From the UHGV virus genome UHGV-0150473: a stretch of DNA of 41,266 nucleotides. The stretch is one strand, 5' to 3'. Source of the stretch: a virus. Position numbers and translations under genes: made by a program. Below are positions 7,132-39,025 of this stretch, piece after piece; the stretch's first letter is position 1; each line of letters starts with the position of its first letter. Under the pieces are notes generated by a model, which saw only the letters and a program-made list of their open reading frames with translations, did not search any database and had not been told where the DNA came from.

Positions 7132-8432
7132 TTTAATATATCCTCCATCATTTCATTAGTAAAGTCTTGACCGTTTGTAACTGTTTCAAAAATCTTTTTC
7201 TCCGTTGGTGTTTCAGGTACAATGTGATAATAAAGTGGTTTCTTGGTTTGACCATAACGGTCTGTGCGTGCCTTAGATTGTTCATAGTTGATTGATTCTA
7301 AAGGCATTGAATTGTAAATTGTCACATTTGCAATAACAAAATCATTAATACCTGTAGAAGCTGATTTGTAGTGTGCTAACACAACACCGTTGTCTTTACC
7401 TTTAAATACTTTTAAGTCTTTGCTAGCGCCATTATATTGACTATATGGACGTTTTAACTTGTCTAATACTTGTTTCAACATTTCAAATTCCACATTGTAA
7501 TTATAAAAGATAACTACTCGTTCGTTGTTATGTGTTTCAAGAATCTGGTTCAGTCGTTCAAATGGTTCTTTGCTTACCTGTTTGTTGATTCCTAATAAGA
7601 AACCATGTGATACACAGCGCATTGCGTTAAATAGTTTACTACTATTATCTAATTCAATCACTTCACCGTTATCTGCTTTGTACATGCGGTTTTTCTTTAA
7701 TTTATTAAACATTGCTGGCTTTTTAGTCTTATACACATAGTCTGCTGGGAAATAGTCTTTATCACGTGTGAAGCGTACTGCACATTGGTCAATCATTTGT
7801 TGTAATAAATGTTCGTTTTGATAACCTACAATATCCATAAACCGCATAGAACCCATTTGTCGCATTTGCTTAATAACAAATAGTTGCTCAAACTCTTTTT
7901 TAGGCTTGCGGAATACATTAAGCATAAATAACTGCGGATAGTAGTTTTCTAACTTGCCATTACTAACAGGTGTTGCTGTTAATAGTCTAACATAAGGTGT
8001 TTTCTTTGTCAACTTCATAGCAAACTTAGTTACTTTTGAGGAACTAACACCAACCTTGTGTGCTTCGTCTAAAATTATGAACGTGTCACTATCTACCCAT
8101 TTTAACAATTCAGTCACTCTCCAGCTACTTTCAAATGAGATTGCAACTCGTGTTGATTCAGCTAATAACTCTTTATTTTTCTTTGTTCCTTTATTGAGTG
8201 GTGTAATCTCAATATCCATCAACGCGCCATCTTCCACAAAGTCCGCAACTTTTGGTGCTAAACAGATAACTAGCAACTTCTTACACCCGCTTTGCAGGTA
8301 GGCACCCAAGGCGGTGAATGTCTTTCCAGTGCCGGCGTCACTTAAATCATAAGGCTTTTCTTTCCATTGTTTAATACCTTCAATTTGCGTTGGTAATAAT
8401 TCTATTTTGCCTATTTTATTTGGAATATTCAA
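7128..8432 (-). CDS. SNF2-family DEAD/DEAH-box helicase
   Basis: Walker A 'DAGTGKT', DEAH box 'ILDEAHKV', helicase C motifs; TTG start with AGGAGG RBS. Confidence 0.75.
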   Translation of the reverse strand: MNIPNKIGKIELLPTQIEGIKQWKEKPYDLSDAGTGKTFTALGAYLQSGCKKLLVICLAPKVADFVEDGALMDIEITPLNKGTKKNKELLAESTRVAISFESSWRVTELLKWVDSDTFIILDEAHKVGVSSSKVTKFAMKLTKKTPYVRLLTATPVSNGKLENYYPQLFMLNVFRKPKKEFEQLFVIKQMRQMGSMRFMDIVGYQNEHLLQQMIDQCAVRFTRDKDYFPADYVYKTKKPAMFNKLKKNRMYKADNGEVIELDNSSKLFNAMRCVSHGFLLGINKQVSKEPFERLNQILETHNNERVVIFYNYNVEFEMLKQVLDKLKRPYSQYNGASKDLKVFKGKDNGVVLAHYKSASTGINDFVIANVTIYNSMPLESINYEQSKARTDRYGQTKKPLYYHIVPETPTEKKIFETVTNGQDFTNEMMEDILK

Positions 8433-8916
8433 AGATATAACCTCCTACATGTTTTCGCTTACCGTTATTATATCTATAAAACTGTGTTTGTGATATTCCC
8501 AATTGCTTAATACACTCACCTAATGAATTATACACATTGTATTCTCCATTTGCAATATCTATAGCTTTTATTTTCTTTTGCTTAGATATGCTAGCTCTTA
8601 TGTTGCGTGTACCATGATTAAGATTCTCTTTAATTGTAGCCCATTCAAGATTAGAAACCATGTTGTTTGTTTTATCTTCGTCAATATGGTTTACTGTAGG
8701 TTTGTTTTCTGGGTTTGGTATGAATGTTTCTGCTACTAAACGGTGTACGTTTTTATTTTTATATGTGCCATCTTTATATAATTTTAATCTCAAATAATTT
8801 TCATGTGTTAATGTTCCAAATCTAATACTACCTCTTTTTAAGCTTTTAACTCTACCTAAGTTACTAACCTGATATAAACCCTCATAACCTTTAATATCTT
8901 TCCATTCTTCAATCAT
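8416..8916 (-). CDS. HNH homing endonuclease (NUMOD4 + HNH_3)
   Basis: 'EEWKDIKGYEGLYQVSNLGRVKS' NUMOD4 signature, 'HIDEDKTNNMVSNLEWAT' HNH_3; start MIEEW overlaps VRR-NUC stop (ATGATTGA). Confidence 0.8.
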   Translation of the reverse strand: MIEEWKDIKGYEGLYQVSNLGRVKSLKRGSIRFGTLTHENYLRLKLYKDGTYKNKNVHRLVAETFIPNPENKPTVNHIDEDKTNNMVSNLEWATIKENLNHGTRNIRASISKQKKIKAIDIANGEYNVYNSLGECIKQLGISQTQFYRYNNGKRKHVGGYIFEYSK

Positions 8917-9319
8917 AGTCAATCTCCAATTCATCATAATTTATTTCTGGCAAATCTGGTTGTTCATATGTGTATGGATATTCCACACCATTATCCATCT
9001 GGTCTAAGTGAAGTAATAGGTCCTCTAAATCATCAAGCGAATCTCTTAATAAAAGACCATATCCACCAGCACATCTAATTTCTTGTAAGTATCTTATTTG
9101 TAATTTATCAGCTTTATAGTTGCCTGTTTTAAGCTCTAAAGCGATATAATAGCCACTGTAGCAGGCTTCAATGTCTGCACGTCCAACACGGTCATATATG
9201 GTTGCTGTGTTAACATTTACAACCGCTCCTCTTGATTTCAAGTATTCTACTACTTCTTTACTAAATTTAGCTTCTTTTTTCACGTGCTGAACCACCTTTT
9301 TTAGACATACCTTGTGCAA
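8909..9319 (-). CDS. VRR-NUC domain nuclease (PD-(D/E)xK); start codon uncertain (TTG 9319 or GTG ~9283)
   Basis: 'GRADIEACYSGYYIALELKTG' D..E.K motif, typical partner of SNF2 helicase. Confidence 0.65.
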   Translation of the reverse strand: MHKVCLKKVVQHVKKEAKFSKEVVEYLKSRGAVVNVNTATIYDRVGRADIEACYSGYYIALELKTGNYKADKLQIRYLQEIRCAGGYGLLLRDSLDDLEDLLLHLDQMDNGVEYPYTYEQPDLPEINYDELEIDYD

Positions 9320-16859: not shown

Positions 16860-17281
16860 TGTTTAAATTTATTTAAAAATAATGAAACCAGTTGAAAAGT
16901 TCTTGATTGTTCTTCATTGAAGAACATGCTTTAGCCTTAGAGCCACAAGGGATTGAACCAATGCGTTCTCGATTGGAGGTGTTTTTACTACTCACCTACC
17001 AGAATTATATTTTATATTATATATTTTTCTACAAATAGAGTAGAATATATGAAGAACACAGAGAACAGTTATAATAAAATAAGCTAAGAATGTTGGTTTA
17101 TCAATGTTTATAGGTGTTCTTCATTGGAATATTTGGTTACTTAAAAAGAGAACACATCAAGAACATCAAGAACGCATGAAGAACATTTCATTGGTTATTA
17201 ATGATTAATCTATTCCCTAAAGTACAAATAAGTATGGTATAATATAGAAGTAAAGTAAAAACATATTAGGAGGAATTAATT
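16860..17281. promoter_or_regulatory. divergent early/late control region with GAAGAACA iterons, perfect 9-1-9 palindrome TGTTCTTCATTGAAGAACA, AT-rich tract; candidate origin/switch
   Basis: Eight or more copies of GAAGAACA/TGTTCTTC within 300 bp; AT-rich 16985-17045; divergent promoters (minus TTGACA at ~16836, plus TGgTATAAT at 17235-17243). Confidence 0.5.
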
Positions 17282-36711: not shown

Positions 36712-36714
36712 CAT

Positions 36715-36745
36715 AAAAACACCTCTTTTCAGGGGTGTTTTTATT
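36715..36745. terminator. bidirectional hairpin terminator after Tal, adjoining repeat copy 1
   Basis: ACACCtcttttcagGGGTGT + T5. Confidence 0.55.
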
Positions 36746-36807
36746 TGCATTTTAATGTATAATCACCTTACTTTGAATCTGAAACGTGCTTAGAATCGTC
36801 CTATGAA
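36740..36807 (+). repeat. 68-bp direct repeat copy 1 flanking lysis cassette
   Basis: Near-identical to 38399-38466. Confidence 0.8.
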
Positions 36808-36889
36808 GCACACTATTTCCCTTATTTAAATGCTATACTATAATAGTAGCTGAAAGGCGGTGATTATAATAAGATAGGGAGATGTAGGC

Positions 36890-37135
36890 ATGGAAGATAA
36901 GGACTTTATGGAAATAAAAGTGCAACTAGCTAGAATTGAATCAAATTTAGAAGGTATTCCAGATTTGAAAAATGAATTAAAGGCAAACAATAATTTATTG
37001 AGTGAAACACATCACCGTTCAATTCAAAATGAGAAAGACATTGCTAGTATAAATGACCGTTTAACTTGGCTAACACGCACAGTATCAGGGGCAATCATTG
37101 TTGCTGTTATTGGTGCTATTATAACTATATTATAA
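36890..37135 (+). CDS. XhlA-like lysis-associated membrane protein (hemolysin XhlA family)
   Basis: 81 aa: N-terminal coiled coil, C-terminal TM 'VSGAIIVAVIGAIITIL'. Confidence 0.6.
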   Translation: MEDKDFMEIKVQLARIESNLEGIPDLKNELKANNNLLSETHHRSIQNEKDIASINDRLTWLTRTVSGAIIVAVIGAIITIL

Positions 37136-37150
37136 GGAGAGTGTTAAAAA

Positions 37151-37383
37151 TGGATTGGAAAACACGTATCAAAAACAAAGCGTTCTGGATTGCTTTAATT
37201 CCAGCAGTAATTGTTCTGATTCAAGTTGTGGGAAACATTTTTGGATTGGACTTATCAAACCTAACTGGTTTGAGCCAACAACTAATTGATGTTGTTAATG
37301 CGGTATTCGTTGTATTAAGTATTTTAGGAGTAGTTATAGACCCAACCACAAAAGGTATTAAAGACAATAAGGAGGATAAATAA
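37151..37383 (+). CDS. holin (phage_holin_1 family)
   Basis: 'DWKTRIKNKAFWIALIPAVIVLIQVV...VVIDPTTKG' matches holin family 1 consensus; RBS AAGGAGAG. Confidence 0.75.
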
Positions 37384-37385
37384 GT

Positions 37386-38369
37386 ATGAAATTAAAAGGT
37401 ATTTTATTTGGTGCATTAGCAACCATTGGTTTGTTTGCTGGAATGCAAACAGCTAACGCATATGAAGTTAATAACGAGTTCAATTTAAACCCTTGGGAAG
37501 GTTCAGGACAGGTTGCAGTACCTAATAAGATTATCTTACATGAAACTGCTAATGAACGTGCCACAGGACGAAATGAAGCAACGTACATGAAAAACAACTG
37601 GTTTAATGCTCATACAACAGCTATCATTGGTGACGGTGGTATTGTGTATAAGATTGCACCAGAAGGCAACGTTTCATGGGGCGCTGGTAATGCAAACCCC
37701 TACGCACCTATTCAAATTGAGTTACAACATACGCATGATAAAGAGTTATTCAAAAAGAACTATAAAGCGTACATTGACTATACAAGGGACATGGGTAAAA
37801 AGTTTGGTATTCCTATGACGCTTGACCAAGGTACTTCTGTTTGGGAAAAAGGTGTTATCTCTCATAAATGGGTATCAGATTATGTATGGGGTGACCACAC
37901 AGACCCATATGGTTACTTAGCAGAAATGGGAATTAGCAAAGCGCAACTAGCTAAAGACTTAGCAAATGGCGTTCAGGGTGATTCTAAGCCGTCAAACCCA
38001 GCAACACCTAACAAACCATCTAAACCAAGTGTAACACCTCAAAAACAACGTTTTAACTATAGAGTTGATGGGTTGGAATATGTAAACGGAATGTGGCAAA
38101 TCTATAACGAACATTTAGGTAAAATTGACTTTAATTGGAATGATAACGGTATTCCAGTTAGTGTTGTTGATAAAGTAAACCCAGCTACTGGGCAACCAAC
38201 CAAAGACCAAGTTCTTTCTGTAGGTGATTACTTCAATTTCCAAGTTAATTCTGTAGGTGTAGTGCAAGAGCAAACACCTTACGGTGGTTATACATTATCT
38301 CATGTACAGTTACCAGAAGAGTTCATTTGGTTATTCACTGAAAACAAAAACACTTTATTATATCAATAA
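37386..38369 (+). CDS. endolysin: secreted peptidoglycan amidase-like hydrolase with N-terminal signal peptide and C-terminal cell-wall-binding domain
   Basis: Signal peptide MKLKGILFGALATIGLFAGMQTANA|YE (AxA site); catalytic region 'ILHETANE...NVSWGAGNANPY..IQIEL' with His residues, no Cys. Confidence 0.7.
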   Translation: MKLKGILFGALATIGLFAGMQTANAYEVNNEFNLNPWEGSGQVAVPNKIILHETANERATGRNEATYMKNNWFNAHTTAIIGDGGIVYKIAPEGNVSWGAGNANPYAPIQIELQHTHDKELFKKNYKAYIDYTRDMGKKFGIPMTLDQGTSVWEKGVISHKWVSDYVWGDHTDPYGYLAEMGISKAQLAKDLANGVQGDSKPSNPATPNKPSKPSVTPQKQRFNYRVDGLEYVNGMWQIYNEHLGKIDFNWNDNGIPVSVVDKVNPATGQPTKDQVLSVGDYFNFQVNSVGVVQEQTPYGGYTLSHVQLPEEFIWLFTENKNTLLYQ

Positions 38370-38374
38370 AACAC

Positions 38375-38408
38375 AAAAGACACCCTATAATGGGTGTCTT
38401 TATTTGCG
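38375..38408. terminator. bidirectional terminator at convergent endolysin/nrdH junction, adjoining repeat copy 2
   Basis: AAGACACCCtataatGGGTGTCTT flanked by T-runs both sides. Confidence 0.65.
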
Positions 38409-38466
38409 TTTTAATGGATAATCACCTTACTTTGAATCTGAAACGTGCTTAGAATGCTCCTATGAA
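38399..38466 (+). repeat. 68-bp direct repeat copy 2 flanking lysis cassette
   Basis: Near-identical to 36740-36807. Confidence 0.8.
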
Positions 38467-38687
38467 ACAATGGTTTCCAAGATATTTGGTGCATATCCAC
38501 CAATTACAATAGGTCCATCATTATTGAACACAACTGGTAAAGAACGAAACCCACATTCCATTAAAAATTCTAATGCTTCCAAATTTTCATCTACATTAAT
38601 TTCTTTATAGTTAACACCTAACTCTTGTAGTTTTCGTTTTGTCATTTTGCAAGGCATGCAATTGTTTTTAGTATATACTGTAATCAT
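38460..38687 (-). CDS. nrdH: NrdH-like glutaredoxin/thioredoxin-fold redoxin
   Basis: 75 aa, CMPC redox motif near N-terminus, thioredoxin-fold spacing. Confidence 0.6.
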   Translation of the reverse strand: MITVYTKNNCMPCKMTKRKLQELGVNYKEINVDENLEALEFLMECGFRSLPVVFNNDGPIVIGGYAPNILETIVS

Positions 38688-38698
38688 TTAAATTCCTC

Positions 38699-38962
38699 CT
38701 AGTTATATCCCAATCTGGTTTTTAATTTGTAAGATTCGTAACCTTTTAATCTTATACGTTCTGGAAAATCACTTATTCTTGATGTCAAAGGAATATGAAC
38801 ATCATTTGATAAACCATGCAACACAATGTTTCCTTGTTGTAATCTGAATGAACCACGTTCAACACCTAATGTATCACACAATTCGTTCATTAGTTCTTTC
38901 TTGTATTTGTTCATTTCCTTTACTGTTTTAAATTCAGGTGATTCATATTCAAATACTTTCAT
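38699..38962 (-). CDS. hypothetical protein (87 aa)
   Basis: ORF with RBS GGGAGGAAG and consensus promoter 38963-39025. Confidence 0.45.
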   Translation of the reverse strand: MKVFEYESPEFKTVKEMNKYKKELMNELCDTLGVERGSFRLQQGNIVLHGLSNDVHIPLTSRISDFPERIRLKGYESYKLKTRLGYN

Positions 38963-39025
38963 AATTGCTTCCTCCCTTTAACTTATGAACTAAGTATACC
39001 ATGTTAAAGGGAGGTTGTCAACACT
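38963..39025 (-). promoter_or_regulatory. early promoter TTGACA-17-TGgTATACT with conserved 'tagttcataag' leader
   Basis: Perfect -35, extended -10. Confidence 0.55.

What the first reader, a model, noticed from the sequence alone, without database searches (positions are those of the whole stretch)
36712..38470. Lysis cassette (XhlA-like, holin, signal-peptide endolysin) bracketed by 68-bp direct repeats each fused to a bidirectional terminator
A 68-bp block (tttatttgcRttttaatgKataatcaccttactttgaatctgaaacgtgcttagaatSStcctatgaa) occurs at 36740-36807 and 38399-38466, each directly after a different but functional hairpin terminator. The repeats flank exactly the three lysis genes. This could mark a recombinationally exchangeable lysis module, or a conserved regulatory or small-RNA element duplicated at both borders.
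Basis: seen in the sequence. Interest (0 to 1): 0.6.

Follow-up and report, generated by a model that had tools for sequence, protein, structure and literature searches.

The report
Conserved terminator-linked repeat flanking phage lysis genes
The 68-bp repeat on both sides of the lysis genes of this Enterococcus phage is real, is kept in over 100 related phages, and is a two-part non-coding motif also found in unrelated enterococcal phages and plasmids; its function is unknown, and the lysis genes are not swapped between the repeats as one block.

Summary
The block at 36740-36807 recurs at 38399-38466 with 64/68 identity. Each copy follows a hairpin terminator, and together they bracket XhlA, holin and endolysin. 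The window is an Enterococcus faecalis Efquatrovirus. Both copies are present in all 32 distinct relatives examined and in 107 phage records.

The unit is terminator plus a bipartite block, here called R:
- left box TTTAATGkATAATCACC;
- an 11-bp spacer of fixed length but free sequence;
- right box CTGAAAnnnGCTTAGAATnnTCCT.

Copy 1 lies upstream of an invariant extended -10 promoter for the lysis genes. Copy 2 lies where late and early transcription converge and overlaps the nrdH stop codon.

R also occurs once in unrelated 58-kb enterococcal phages, in E. hirae plasmids, in a plasmid-like gut contig and in two Enterococcus chromosomes, in either orientation relative to its neighbours. It has no conserved RNA fold, no Rfam match and no canonical promoter.

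Both units are homology breakpoints, but what varies is the tail-gene end and the endolysin wall-binding domain, not the cassette. The near-identity in this phage comes from patchy conversion of copy 1 by copy 2.

My best reading is a DNA-level factor-binding insulator or operator that recombination also uses (confidence 0.38). This is inferred, not shown.

The parts
36713..36744 (.). T1: intrinsic-terminator hairpin closing the tail operon. It has an A-tract upstream and a T-tract downstream.
   Evidence: 14 pairs, + strand. One search shows a strong hairpin on both strands. Relatives keep the stem with changed bases, e.g. CACCTC/GAGGTG versus CACCCT/AGGGTG.
36740..36807 (.). Repeat copy 1 (R c1). 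T-tract 36740-36749; left box 36750-36767; variable spacer 36768-36778; right box 36779-36802.
   Evidence: Nucleotide diversity is 0.12 (left box), 0.44 (spacer) and 0.087 (right box), against 0.19-0.22 at third codon positions.
36808..36889 (+). Nearly invariant intergenic stretch between copy 1 and xhlA. It is the presumed lysis promoter plus 5' UTR.
   Evidence: most columns 100% conserved in 32 relatives. (diversity 0.099).
36831..36839 (+). Extended -10 promoter-like site TGcTATACT (TGnTATAAT type, no -35). It is the candidate lysis-cassette promoter. R c1 then spans about -96 to -39.
   Evidence: Read from the sequence. In 32 relatives TG and TATACT are invariant and only the 'n' varies. 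Not tested experimentally.
36890..37135 (+). XhlA-like membrane protein gene
   Evidence: PF10779, E = 1.3e-10.
37150..37383 (+). Holin gene (Phage_holin_1)
   Evidence: PF04531, E = 2.3e-23. Start chosen at the ATG behind the GGAG ribosome-binding site.
37386..38369 (+). Endolysin gene: signal-peptide-like N-terminus, Amidase_2 domain, ZoocinA_TRD wall-binding domain.
   Evidence: The C-terminal part from about 37960 is replaced in many relatives.
38376..38401 (.). T2: bidirectional intrinsic terminator at the point where late (+) and early (-) transcription converge.
   Evidence: called on both strands. Relatives show a compensatory G-C to A-T change at the stem base.
38399..38466 (.). Repeat copy 2 (R c2). 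Left box 38409-38426; spacer 38427-38437; right box 38438-38461. Its right end overlaps the nrdH stop codon.
   Evidence: diversity 0.10 overall, 0.071 in the right box.
38460..38687 (-). NrdH-like glutaredoxin gene, the last gene of the leftward unit. Its TAG stop lies inside R c2.
   Evidence: PF00462, E = 1.2e-15.
38993..39021 (-). Near-consensus sigma-A promoter (TTGACA-17-TATACT with TG). It would drive orf87 plus nrdH towards T2, so R c2 would be the 3' UTR of that transcript.
   Evidence: 11 of 12 consensus matches. Not tested experimentally.

Best explanation
The repeat is one paralogous pair of a conserved non-coding unit. The unit is an intrinsic terminator hairpin followed by a ~58-bp bipartite block, R. 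R has a left box TTTAATGkATAATCACC, an 11-bp spacer of fixed length but free sequence, and a right box CTGAAAnnnGCTTAGAATnnTCCT.

Copy 1 closes the tail operon. It sits about -96 to -39 from a strictly conserved extended -10 promoter for xhlA-holin-endolysin. Copy 2 closes the lysis cassette at the junction where late and early transcription converge.

I read R as a DNA-level, orientation-independent binding site for a protein. The protein is most likely host-encoded, because unrelated enterococcal phages and plasmids carry the same motif and share no regulator gene with this phage. Together with the terminator, R would act as an insulator or operator. It would keep read-through from the tail operon and from the convergent early unit out of the lysis genes, and it would condition the lysis promoter.

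Because the two units are homologous and conserved, recombination also uses them. Three consequences are visible:
- patchy gene conversion of copy 1 by copy 2, which is why the copies are 94% identical in this phage against a median of 79% in relatives;
- tandem duplication, and insertion of a homing-endonuclease gene, in relatives;
- use as right-hand homology anchors when the tail-gene end or the endolysin wall-binding domain is exchanged.

Shown here: existence, conservation pattern, bipartite architecture, distribution, absence of a conserved RNA fold or canonical promoter, breakpoints and conversions. Inferred: protein binding and the insulating or regulatory role.
For: Existence and conservation:
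- The repeat is real and non-random.
- Both copies are present in 32 of 32 distinct relatives and in 107 phage records.
- Conservation is block-wise with strictly constant spacing (one 1-nt indel in 64 copies), while the copy 1 spacer is replaced wholesale.
- Box diversity is 0.07-0.12, against 0.19-0.22 at third codon positions of the neighbouring genes.

Distribution outside the genus:
- The same architecture and spacing form the only conserved island in a long intergenic region of five unrelated 58-59-kb phages, where the spacer again varies.
- It is also in E. hirae plasmids, in gut and sewage metagenome contigs L094, L105 and L107, and in two Enterococcus chromosomes.
- Orientation relative to flanking genes and to the nearest terminator differs between contexts.
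- The only protein family shared between this phage and the 50 kb of EG103P1 fetched plus the other R-bearing loci is an HNH endonuclease, so no shared phage regulator was found.

Against the RNA and promoter alternatives:
- No consensus RNA structure on either strand and no Rfam hit.
- No sigma-A -35/-10 pair in R on the + strand.

Position and recombination:
- Copy 1 lies directly upstream of an invariant TGnTATACT site.
- Breakpoints fall at T1/c1 and T2/c2.
- Conversion, duplication and endonuclease-insertion variants are seen.
Against: - No binding factor is identified, and the boxes lack the dyad or direct-repeat symmetry usual for dimeric regulators.
- Constraint is moderate, not extreme: box diversity is about half the synonymous-site level.
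- The invariant (T/C)AGAAT keeps the two key -10 positions. In L039 it is preceded by TTGATA at 18 bp, so a weak or factor-dependent promoter is not excluded.
- In other contexts the distance from R to the nearest downstream extended -10-like site is not constant (about 34, 41 and 70 nt). That does not fit a classical upstream activator site.
- Copy 2, the better conserved copy, has no promoter next to it.
- Conservation might partly reflect recent spread by recombination or homing rather than selection.
Confidence: 0.38

Rival explanations
1. R is a promoter read on the + strand. The invariant (T/C)AGAAT is its -10 element, used by host RNA polymerase with little or no -35, perhaps with a helper factor. 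Copy 1 would give a lysis mRNA with an ~87-nt leader. Copy 2 would give an antisense RNA running into nrdH and the early genes. The unit would then be a terminator-promoter cassette.
For: - AGAAT, with the A and T at the critical -10 positions, is invariant in all ~25 distinct homologues, including the E. hirae GCTCAGAAT variant.
- R follows a terminator in Efquatrovirus, L094 and L107.
- R lies 90-190 nt upstream of a co-oriented gene in four contexts: copy 1, L094, L107 and the E. hirae plasmid.
- In L039 the motif reads TTGATA-18-TAGAAT.
Against: - There is no -35 at 16-18 bp and no TG at -15/-14 in any phage copy. The -35 position falls in the variable spacer.
- The consensus scan reports no + strand promoter in R.
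- Sequence is also conserved downstream of the hexamer (GCTCCT) and 5 bp upstream (TGAAA), which a sigma-A promoter does not need.
- A separate invariant extended -10 already lies 34 nt downstream of copy 1.
- In the EG103/EC55 phages, where nearly all annotated genes are on the other strand, this promoter would only make antisense RNA.
Confidence: 0.17
2. R acts as RNA on the minus strand, as the 3' UTR of the strongly promoted orf87-nrdH unit (R plus T2). This could be a stabilising or processed 3'-UTR RNA. It could also be an antisense partner of + strand transcripts that cross copy 1. The logic would be that of direct repeats transcribed in opposite directions, as in the pAD1 par RNA I / RNA II pair.
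For: - In copy 2, L039 and L030 the minus-strand form of R starts at or within 17 nt of a stop codon.
- A near-consensus promoter drives orf87-nrdH towards T2.
- The minus strand has a small hairpin, UAGGA-GCA-UUCUA. It is extended in copy 1 (GUGCUU/AAGCAC) and in E. hirae (9 pairs followed by a U-run).
- The CGT/AAC polymorphism in copy 1 keeps pairing only on the minus strand, as read.
- The copy 2 minus strand and the copy 1 plus strand are complementary over 64/68 nt in this phage.
Against: - RNAalifold finds no consensus structure on either strand, and there is no Rfam family.
- The always-present hairpin is only 4-5 pairs.
- Copy 1 and copy 2 of the same genome are no more alike than copies from different genomes (39.6 versus 39.6 of 51 positions, permutation p = 0.42). 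In 17 of 32 genomes the central 14 nt differ.
- If the lysis promoter is at 36831-36839, copy 1 is not part of the lysis mRNA.
- R lies in the opposite orientation relative to neighbouring genes in copy 1, L094, L107 and E. hirae.
- No small toxin ORF is present.
Confidence: 0.15
3. The units matter mainly as recombination substrates. They would be conserved linker sequences, comparable to the promoter-stem-loop cassettes of T4-type phages, that let modules be exchanged between co-infecting phages. They would have no sequence-specific function beyond the terminator.
For: - Homology with close relatives starts exactly at T1/c1 and, after the divergent endolysin C-terminus, resumes exactly at T2/c2.
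- 8 tail-end types, 4 endolysin C-terminal types and several nrdH types reassort freely.
- Conversion tracts run between copy 1 and copy 2. Copy 1 is tandemly duplicated in phage Vaquero.
- An HNH endonuclease gene sits inside copy 2 in LY0322/KEN02-type phages, and a homologous one lies next to R in EC55P1. The slot beside R is variable in that family.
Against: - The lysis cassette itself is not exchanged as a unit, and one major breakpoint is inside the endolysin gene.
- Mere homology does not explain the bipartite conservation with fixed spacing, nor survival of the same motif as a single copy in unrelated phages, plasmids and chromosomes.
- Any conserved segment next to a diversifying gene will look like a breakpoint.
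Confidence: 0.15
4. Copy 1 is a neutral relic of an old duplication of the late/early junction (terminator, R and the nrdH 3' end). It is kept similar only by occasional gene conversion from copy 2, and R has no function of its own.
For: - Weak homology continues ~15 nt past R into what is the nrdH 3' end in copy 2.
- Copy 1 is more variable than copy 2, and several copy 1 versions carry copy 2-like patches.
Against: - The right box of copy 1 is as conserved as that of copy 2 (diversity 0.087 versus 0.071), while its spacer has diverged fully (0.44). That is a selective pattern, not uniform decay or uniform conversion.
- R is conserved in independent lineages as a single copy.
Confidence: 0.1

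Closest known systems
PeSL (promoter-early stem-loop) cassettes of T4-type phages (Arbiol et al. 2010, Genome Biol Evol; cited from my own knowledge, not read here)
   Same: A repeated non-coding unit made of a stem-loop plus an adjacent conserved block. It sits at the borders of gene cassettes, next to variable slots and homing-endonuclease genes, and coincides with mosaic breakpoints.
   Different: PeSLs carry a recognisable sigma-70 early promoter and occur in many copies per genome. Here there are two copies, and no canonical promoter is found in the block. The same block also occurs in plasmids and chromosomes. Excised mini-circles or cassette transfer were not shown.
xhlA-xhlB-xlyA type lysis cassette of Bacillus subtilis PBSX and related Firmicutes phages (from my own knowledge)
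   Same: The same gene order and families: XhlA (PF10779), a small holin and an N-acetylmuramoyl-L-alanine amidase.
   Different: I know of no report that this cassette is bracketed by a duplicated terminator-linked block. The endolysin here has a signal-peptide-like N-terminus and a ZoocinA_TRD wall-binding domain.
par locus of Enterococcus faecalis plasmid pAD1 (RNA I / RNA II; from my own knowledge)
   Same: Direct repeats read in opposite directions by convergent transcription units that share a bidirectional terminator. This makes the two RNAs complementary. The host genus is the same.
   Different: The par repeats are ~100 nt apart inside a ~400-bp toxin-antitoxin locus that encodes the Fst peptide. 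Here the copies are 1.66 kb apart, no toxin ORF is present, and the copies do not co-evolve.
Cluster-specific intergenic repeats of mycobacteriophages (stoperators, start-associated sequences; from my own knowledge)
   Same: Short conserved non-coding motifs repeated at gene borders across a whole phage cluster, acting as DNA or RNA signals rather than as genes.
   Different: Those motifs are 13-35 bp, occur in many copies per genome, and have a known partner (repressor or ribosome). R is ~58 bp, bipartite, present in one or two copies, and its partner is unknown.

Membership tests
Intrinsic (rho-independent) terminator | G+C-rich hairpin followed directly by a T-run. For a bidirectional terminator, also an A-run upstream. 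| tested here: met
   T1 36713-36744 and T2 38376-38401. T2 was called on both strands. T1 was called on + only but folds on both strands with flanking A and T runs. Stems are kept with changed bases in relatives. Termination activity was not measured.
Sigma-A promoter | -35 and -10 hexamers 16-18 bp apart, or TGn plus a -10 hexamer | tested here: not met
   Within R there is no + strand hit. TAGAAT has no -35 at 16-18 bp and no TG. By contrast, the site 34 nt downstream of copy 1 (TGcTATACT, 36831-36839) meets the extended -10 rule and is invariant in relatives.
PeSL-like mobile regulatory cassette | Stem-loop immediately followed by a functional early promoter | tested here: inconclusive
   The stem-loop is present. 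The adjacent block has only a -10-like hexamer. Activity is not testable here.
PeSL-like mobile regulatory cassette | Copies flank cassettes that differ between related genomes | tested here: inconclusive
   The units coincide with breakpoints and adjoin variable segments and endonuclease insertions. However, the genes between the two copies are mostly invariant, and one breakpoint is inside the endolysin gene.
Small RNA or structured cis-RNA (any Rfam family) | Match to a curated covariance model, or a conserved secondary structure with covariation | tested here: not met
   No Rfam match above noise (best E = 0.38, far below gathering score). RNAalifold returns an empty structure on both strands for 25 homologues.
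par-like type I toxin-antitoxin arrangement | Small hydrophobic toxin ORF plus convergent RNAs that share direct repeats and a terminator | tested here: not met
   Convergent units and a shared terminator exist at copy 2. No Fst-like ORF is seen, and the copies do not co-vary within genomes.
RNA anti-CRISPR (solitary CRISPR-repeat mimic) | Significant similarity to a CRISPR repeat of the host | tested here: not met
   The best local match is to the Enterococcus type II-A repeat DR6 (repeat sequences from PMC10165109). It scores 12, and 13% of dinucleotide shuffles reach that score.
Homing-endonuclease target or insertion site | An endonuclease gene occupies the site in some genomes, and the empty site is cleaved by that enzyme | tested here: inconclusive
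   An I-HmuI-like HNH gene replaces T2 and the left part of copy 2 in LY0322/KEN02-type phages. A homologue lies next to R in EC55P1. Cleavage is not testable here.
XhlA-holin-amidase lysis cassette | Adjacent genes of families XhlA, holin and peptidoglycan hydrolase | tested here: met
   PF10779, PF04531, and PF01510 plus PF16775.

The most novel reading that the evidence does not exclude
R is a so-far undescribed recognition site for a host (Enterococcus) factor that unrelated mobile elements (two phage lineages, plasmids and integrated elements) place at operon junctions. In Efquatrovirus the two copies would insulate the lysis cassette and time its expression. They would also mark the 3' borders of the two host-specificity modules, the receptor-binding tail protein and the endolysin wall-binding domain, so the same element would couple regulation with modular host-range exchange.
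Probability: 0.2. Interest if true: 0.65.

Novelty: new variant of a known kind. Interest (0 to 1): 0.45.

Why it matters
Efquatrovirus phages are among the most frequently isolated E. faecalis phages and are candidates for therapy. If R controls when the holin and endolysin genes are transcribed, it is a handle on lysis timing and burst size.

The segments just upstream of the two units are the variable end of the 789-aa tail gene (called minor tail or host-interaction protein in relatives) and the variable endolysin wall-binding domain. If the units serve as fixed anchors next to those segments, they are natural junctions for engineering host range.

The same motif in unrelated enterococcal phages and plasmids suggests an unrecognised host factor or signal that mobile elements share. 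If R proves inert, the finding reduces to a well-documented case of a duplicated intergenic linker kept alive by gene conversion.

Tried and rejected
- Canonical promoter in R. Consensus scans and manual checks of all 16-18-bp spacings found none in the phage copies. On the minus strand only TTCAAA-17-TAAAAT appears in copy 1; it is not conserved and would fire straight into the terminator.
- Other copies of R, or of its boxes, in the window. None beyond chance. A weak GCTAAGAAT at 17074-17091 lies in the early/late divergent region.
- Shared motif between the lysis promoter region and other promoters of the window. None found.
- Known RNA families and a conserved RNA fold. Negative. Single-sequence folds are dominated by the terminators. 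A covariation analysis of the terminators was blurred because T1 and T2 stems align out of register.
- Trans-antisense co-evolution of copy 1 and copy 2. Not seen (p = 0.42).
- Coding explanations. In most relatives R is non-coding. The nrdH ORF extends through R in only about 4 of 31, and the variable dinucleotide in the right box falls on codon positions 1-2 of the only recurrent reading frame. Small ORFs on either strand are not conserved (manual reading).
- CRISPR-repeat mimicry. Not significant.
- Motif recall from memory. I compared R by eye with the CcpA cre, CodY, Rex, Fur/PerR, LexA, CIRCE, parS, dif/XerS, hix/gix, Chi, sigma-54, ECF, sigma-H, ComX box, SPO1 late and T4 MotA box consensus sequences. 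None fits over the conserved positions. These are recollections, not tests.
- Literature. The sequence strings do not occur in any relevant paper, and the Efquatrovirus paper that was opened holds only in-silico promoter and terminator predictions.
- Plasmid search. R occurs in only two E. hirae plasmids; the other hits were to an unrelated part of the query.
- A regulator gene shared by R-bearing elements. None found; only HNH endonucleases are shared. The last 8.5 kb of EG103P1 was not included.
Full report
**1. The observation**

The window carries a direct repeat at 36740-36807 and 38399-38466. The central 38-mer occurs exactly twice, with none expected in 100 dinucleotide shuffles.

Homology runs further left through the terminators: 95 nt, 36716-36810 versus 38375-38469, at 86%. 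It continues weakly for ~15 nt to the right.

Each copy follows a hairpin plus T-run:
- T1, 36713-36744, 14 pairs;
- T2, 38376-38401, 10 pairs, called on both strands.

The scan called T1 on the + strand only. It nevertheless folds as a strong hairpin with flanking A and U runs on both strands. The first 5-10 nt of the block are the terminator's T-tract.

Pfam identifies the genes between the copies:
- XhlA (PF10779), 36890-37135;
- a Phage_holin_1 holin, 37150-37383;
- an endolysin, 37386-38369, with a signal-peptide-like N-terminus, Amidase_2 and ZoocinA_TRD.

The right end of copy 2 overlaps the stop codon of a minus-strand NrdH-like glutaredoxin gene, 38460-38687.

**2. What the window is**

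The window is an Enterococcus faecalis siphophage of the genus Efquatrovirus; 109 phage records match this region. Its layout:
- early and replication genes on the minus strand (1-17 kb, and 38.4-41.3 kb, which I take to be continuous in the phage genome);
- late genes on the plus strand (17.7-38.4 kb).

Copy 2 therefore sits where late and early transcription converge. Copy 1 sits between the last tail gene and the lysis genes.

**3. Conservation**

A 71-nt query finds the block in 107 phage records, mostly at two places each. With a more sensitive search, both copies are present in all 32 distinct relatives for which I held the locus.

Aligned, the block (which I call R) is bipartite:
- left box TTTAATGkATAATCACC;
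- an 11-bp spacer;
- right box CTGAAAnnnGCTTAGAATnnTCCT.

Length is constant; there is one 1-nt indel among 64 copies.

Nucleotide diversity across the 32 genomes:

| Region | Diversity |
|---|---|
| Copy 2, left box | 0.088 |
| Copy 2, spacer | 0.098 |
| Copy 2, right box | 0.071 |
| Copy 1, left box | 0.125 |
| Copy 1, spacer | 0.44 |
| Copy 1, right box | 0.087 |
| Third codon positions (xhlA, endolysin, nrdH) | 0.19-0.22 |

The boxes are therefore under moderate constraint in both copies. The spacer is free in copy 1.

The 82 bp between copy 1 and xhlA are almost invariant. They hold TGcTATACT at 36831-36839, where TG and TATACT never vary and only the middle base does. This is the pattern expected of an extended -10 promoter. 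If it is the lysis promoter, R copy 1 spans about -96 to -39.

**4. Why the two copies are so alike in this phage**

Copy 1 comes in three forms:
- an old form, CACCCACATTGGCGACTGAAAAACGC, in 17 of 32 genomes;
- a form whose spacer alone is copy 2-like;
- a form, in the window, VP15 and Vaquero, in which the spacer and the CGT triplet are both copy 2-like.

The window's closest relative over the cassette is vB-EfaP-1017 (97%). It still has the AAC version of copy 1. I read the window's centre of copy 1 (about 36760-36787) as a short conversion tract copied from copy 2.

Across the 32 genomes, copy 1 to copy 2 identity ranges from 32 to 64 of 68, with a median of 54. Copies of the same genome are no more alike than copies from different genomes (permutation p = 0.42). 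Conversion is therefore sporadic, and there is no selection for the two copies to match.

Other rearrangements at the units:
- a tandem 77-bp duplication of copy 1 in phage Vaquero;
- an I-HmuI-like HNH endonuclease gene replacing T2 and the left part of copy 2 in LY0322/KEN02-type phages.

**5. Is the lysis cassette exchanged between the repeats?**

No. Clustering segment by segment gives this picture:

| Segment | Types among relatives |
|---|---|
| Tail-gene 3' end, upstream of T1 | 8 |
| xhlA + holin + amidase domain | 1 (31 of 32 genomes) |
| Endolysin C-terminal part | 4 |
| nrdH | several |

All of these reassort freely.

Sliding identity of the window against five relatives shows the breakpoints:
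- 1017 is unrelated up to ~36700 and 83-100% identical from T1 onward;
- VP15 is 96-100% identical from copy 1 to ~37960, ~50% over the endolysin C-terminus, and 98-100% again from T2/copy 2 to the end of nrdH.

Both terminator+R units are thus homology boundaries. The variable pieces lie immediately upstream of each unit. They are the end of the 789-aa tail gene (Prophage_tail family; relatives call it minor tail or host-interaction protein) and the wall-binding domain of the endolysin. A further breakpoint lies inside the endolysin gene.

**6. R outside this genus**

- Five 58-59-kb phages of E. gallinarum/casseliflavus-group hosts (EG103P1-3, EC55P1-2) carry one R in a long, iteron-rich intergenic region. 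It is the only conserved island there. It has the same box spacing and, again, a variable spacer.
- In EG103P1 nearly all annotated genes lie on the strand opposite to R's orientation as defined in my window. Relative to the neighbouring terminator and genes, R is therefore inverted compared with copy 1.
- R also occurs in two E. hirae plasmids, upstream of a small tyrosine recombinase gene.
- It occurs in a plasmid-like gut contig, L094, as terminator plus R upstream of a helix-turn-helix gene and beside a rep gene with iterons.
- It occurs in contigs L105 and L107.
- It occurs in Enterococcus sp. LJL51, just after a serine recombinase gene, and the right box alone is in E. diestrammenae.
- The only protein family shared between my window and these loci is the HNH endonuclease. 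One such gene lies beside R in EC55P1, and the slot next to R differs among the EG103/EC55 phages.

**7. What R is not, as far as tested**

- R has no Rfam match.
- It has no consensus RNA structure on either strand across 25 homologues.
- It contains no + strand sigma-A promoter. TAGAAT is -10-like, but the -35 position falls in the variable spacer and there is no TG.
- Its resemblance to Enterococcus CRISPR repeats is not significant (p = 0.13).
- No coding pattern is conserved.
- The paper library holds no description of it.

**8. Interpretation**

Four features fit best with a DNA site for a sequence-specific factor:
- the bipartite architecture with fixed spacing;
- independence of orientation;
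- presence in unrelated mobile elements of one host genus, with no shared regulator gene;
- absence of any RNA fold.

The factor is probably host-encoded. In Efquatrovirus the site is paired with a terminator at the two borders of the lysis cassette. Together they would insulate the cassette from read-through on both sides and condition the lysis promoter downstream of copy 1.

Binding and the regulatory role are inferences, and I give this reading 0.38. The rivals are:
- a factor-dependent promoter using TAGAAT (0.17);
- a minus-strand 3'-UTR or antisense RNA role (0.15);
- a pure recombination-linker role of the PeSL type (0.15);
- a neutral relic (0.10).

Use of the units by recombination (conversion, duplication, endonuclease insertion, mosaic junctions) is shown. 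It is compatible with all of these readings.

**9. Verdict**

The repeat is real and conserved across the genus, and it belongs to a wider, undescribed motif family of enterococcal mobile elements. The 'exchangeable lysis module' idea holds only in a weaker form: the units are module borders, but not for the cassette as a whole. Function remains open, and 5'/3'-end RNA mapping plus a binding assay would settle it.

Interest is 0.45. I class it as a new variant of a known kind, namely repeated regulatory or linker cassettes at phage module junctions.

Noticed in passing
window 16890-17190: An array of at least eight GAAGAACA/AGAACA iterons in the intergenic region between the divergent early and late gene blocks. 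It may be an origin of replication or a regulator-binding array.
   Followed up: no
window 38993-39021 (-): A near-consensus sigma-A promoter (TTGACA-17-TATACT with TG) lies just after the DNA polymerase gene. It makes orf87 (38699-38962, no Pfam match) plus nrdH a separate short unit that ends at T2.
   Followed up: partly
window 38427-38462 (-): The nrdH TAG stop is followed in frame by 10 sense codons (EHSKHVSDSK) and then TAA, running across the right box and spacer of copy 2. Relatives L005, L061 and LY0322/KEN02 have CAG or GAG instead of TAG, which gives an NrdH about 13-14 residues longer (manual translation).
   Followed up: partly
L021 5685-6215 and L027 5686-6216 (LY0322, KEN02); L081 1829-2341 (EC55P1): An I-HmuI-like HNH homing-endonuclease gene replaces T2 and the left part of repeat copy 2 in some relatives. 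It is 59% identical to the window's own HNH gene at 8419-8940. A homologue at 33% identity lies next to the single R of an unrelated phage.
   Followed up: partly
L020 2152-2296 (phage Vaquero, PV544183): Copy 1 is tandemly duplicated with a 77-bp period, and each unit is preceded by a different terminator (CCTAGCACAGGGGG...). TexasRanger also shows additional places.
   Followed up: partly
window 37960-38369: The endolysin C-terminal (ZoocinA_TRD) part is one of four unrelated alternatives among relatives. The breakpoint is at the inter-domain linker, near 37960.
   Followed up: partly
window 36758-36767 and 36859-36868: A 10-nt inverted repeat, TATAATCACC / GGTGATTATA, brackets R copy 1 and the lysis promoter. 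Its 3' arm lies just upstream of the xhlA ribosome-binding site and is only partly conserved in relatives.
   Followed up: partly
L022 3486-4264 (phage EG103P1): A 780-bp intergenic region with several families of short direct repeats (GTCCAAAAG..., AAAAATCCCGGGG..., GCTGATTGAAAGG...) surrounds the single R copy. It may be an origin or a control region.
   Followed up: no
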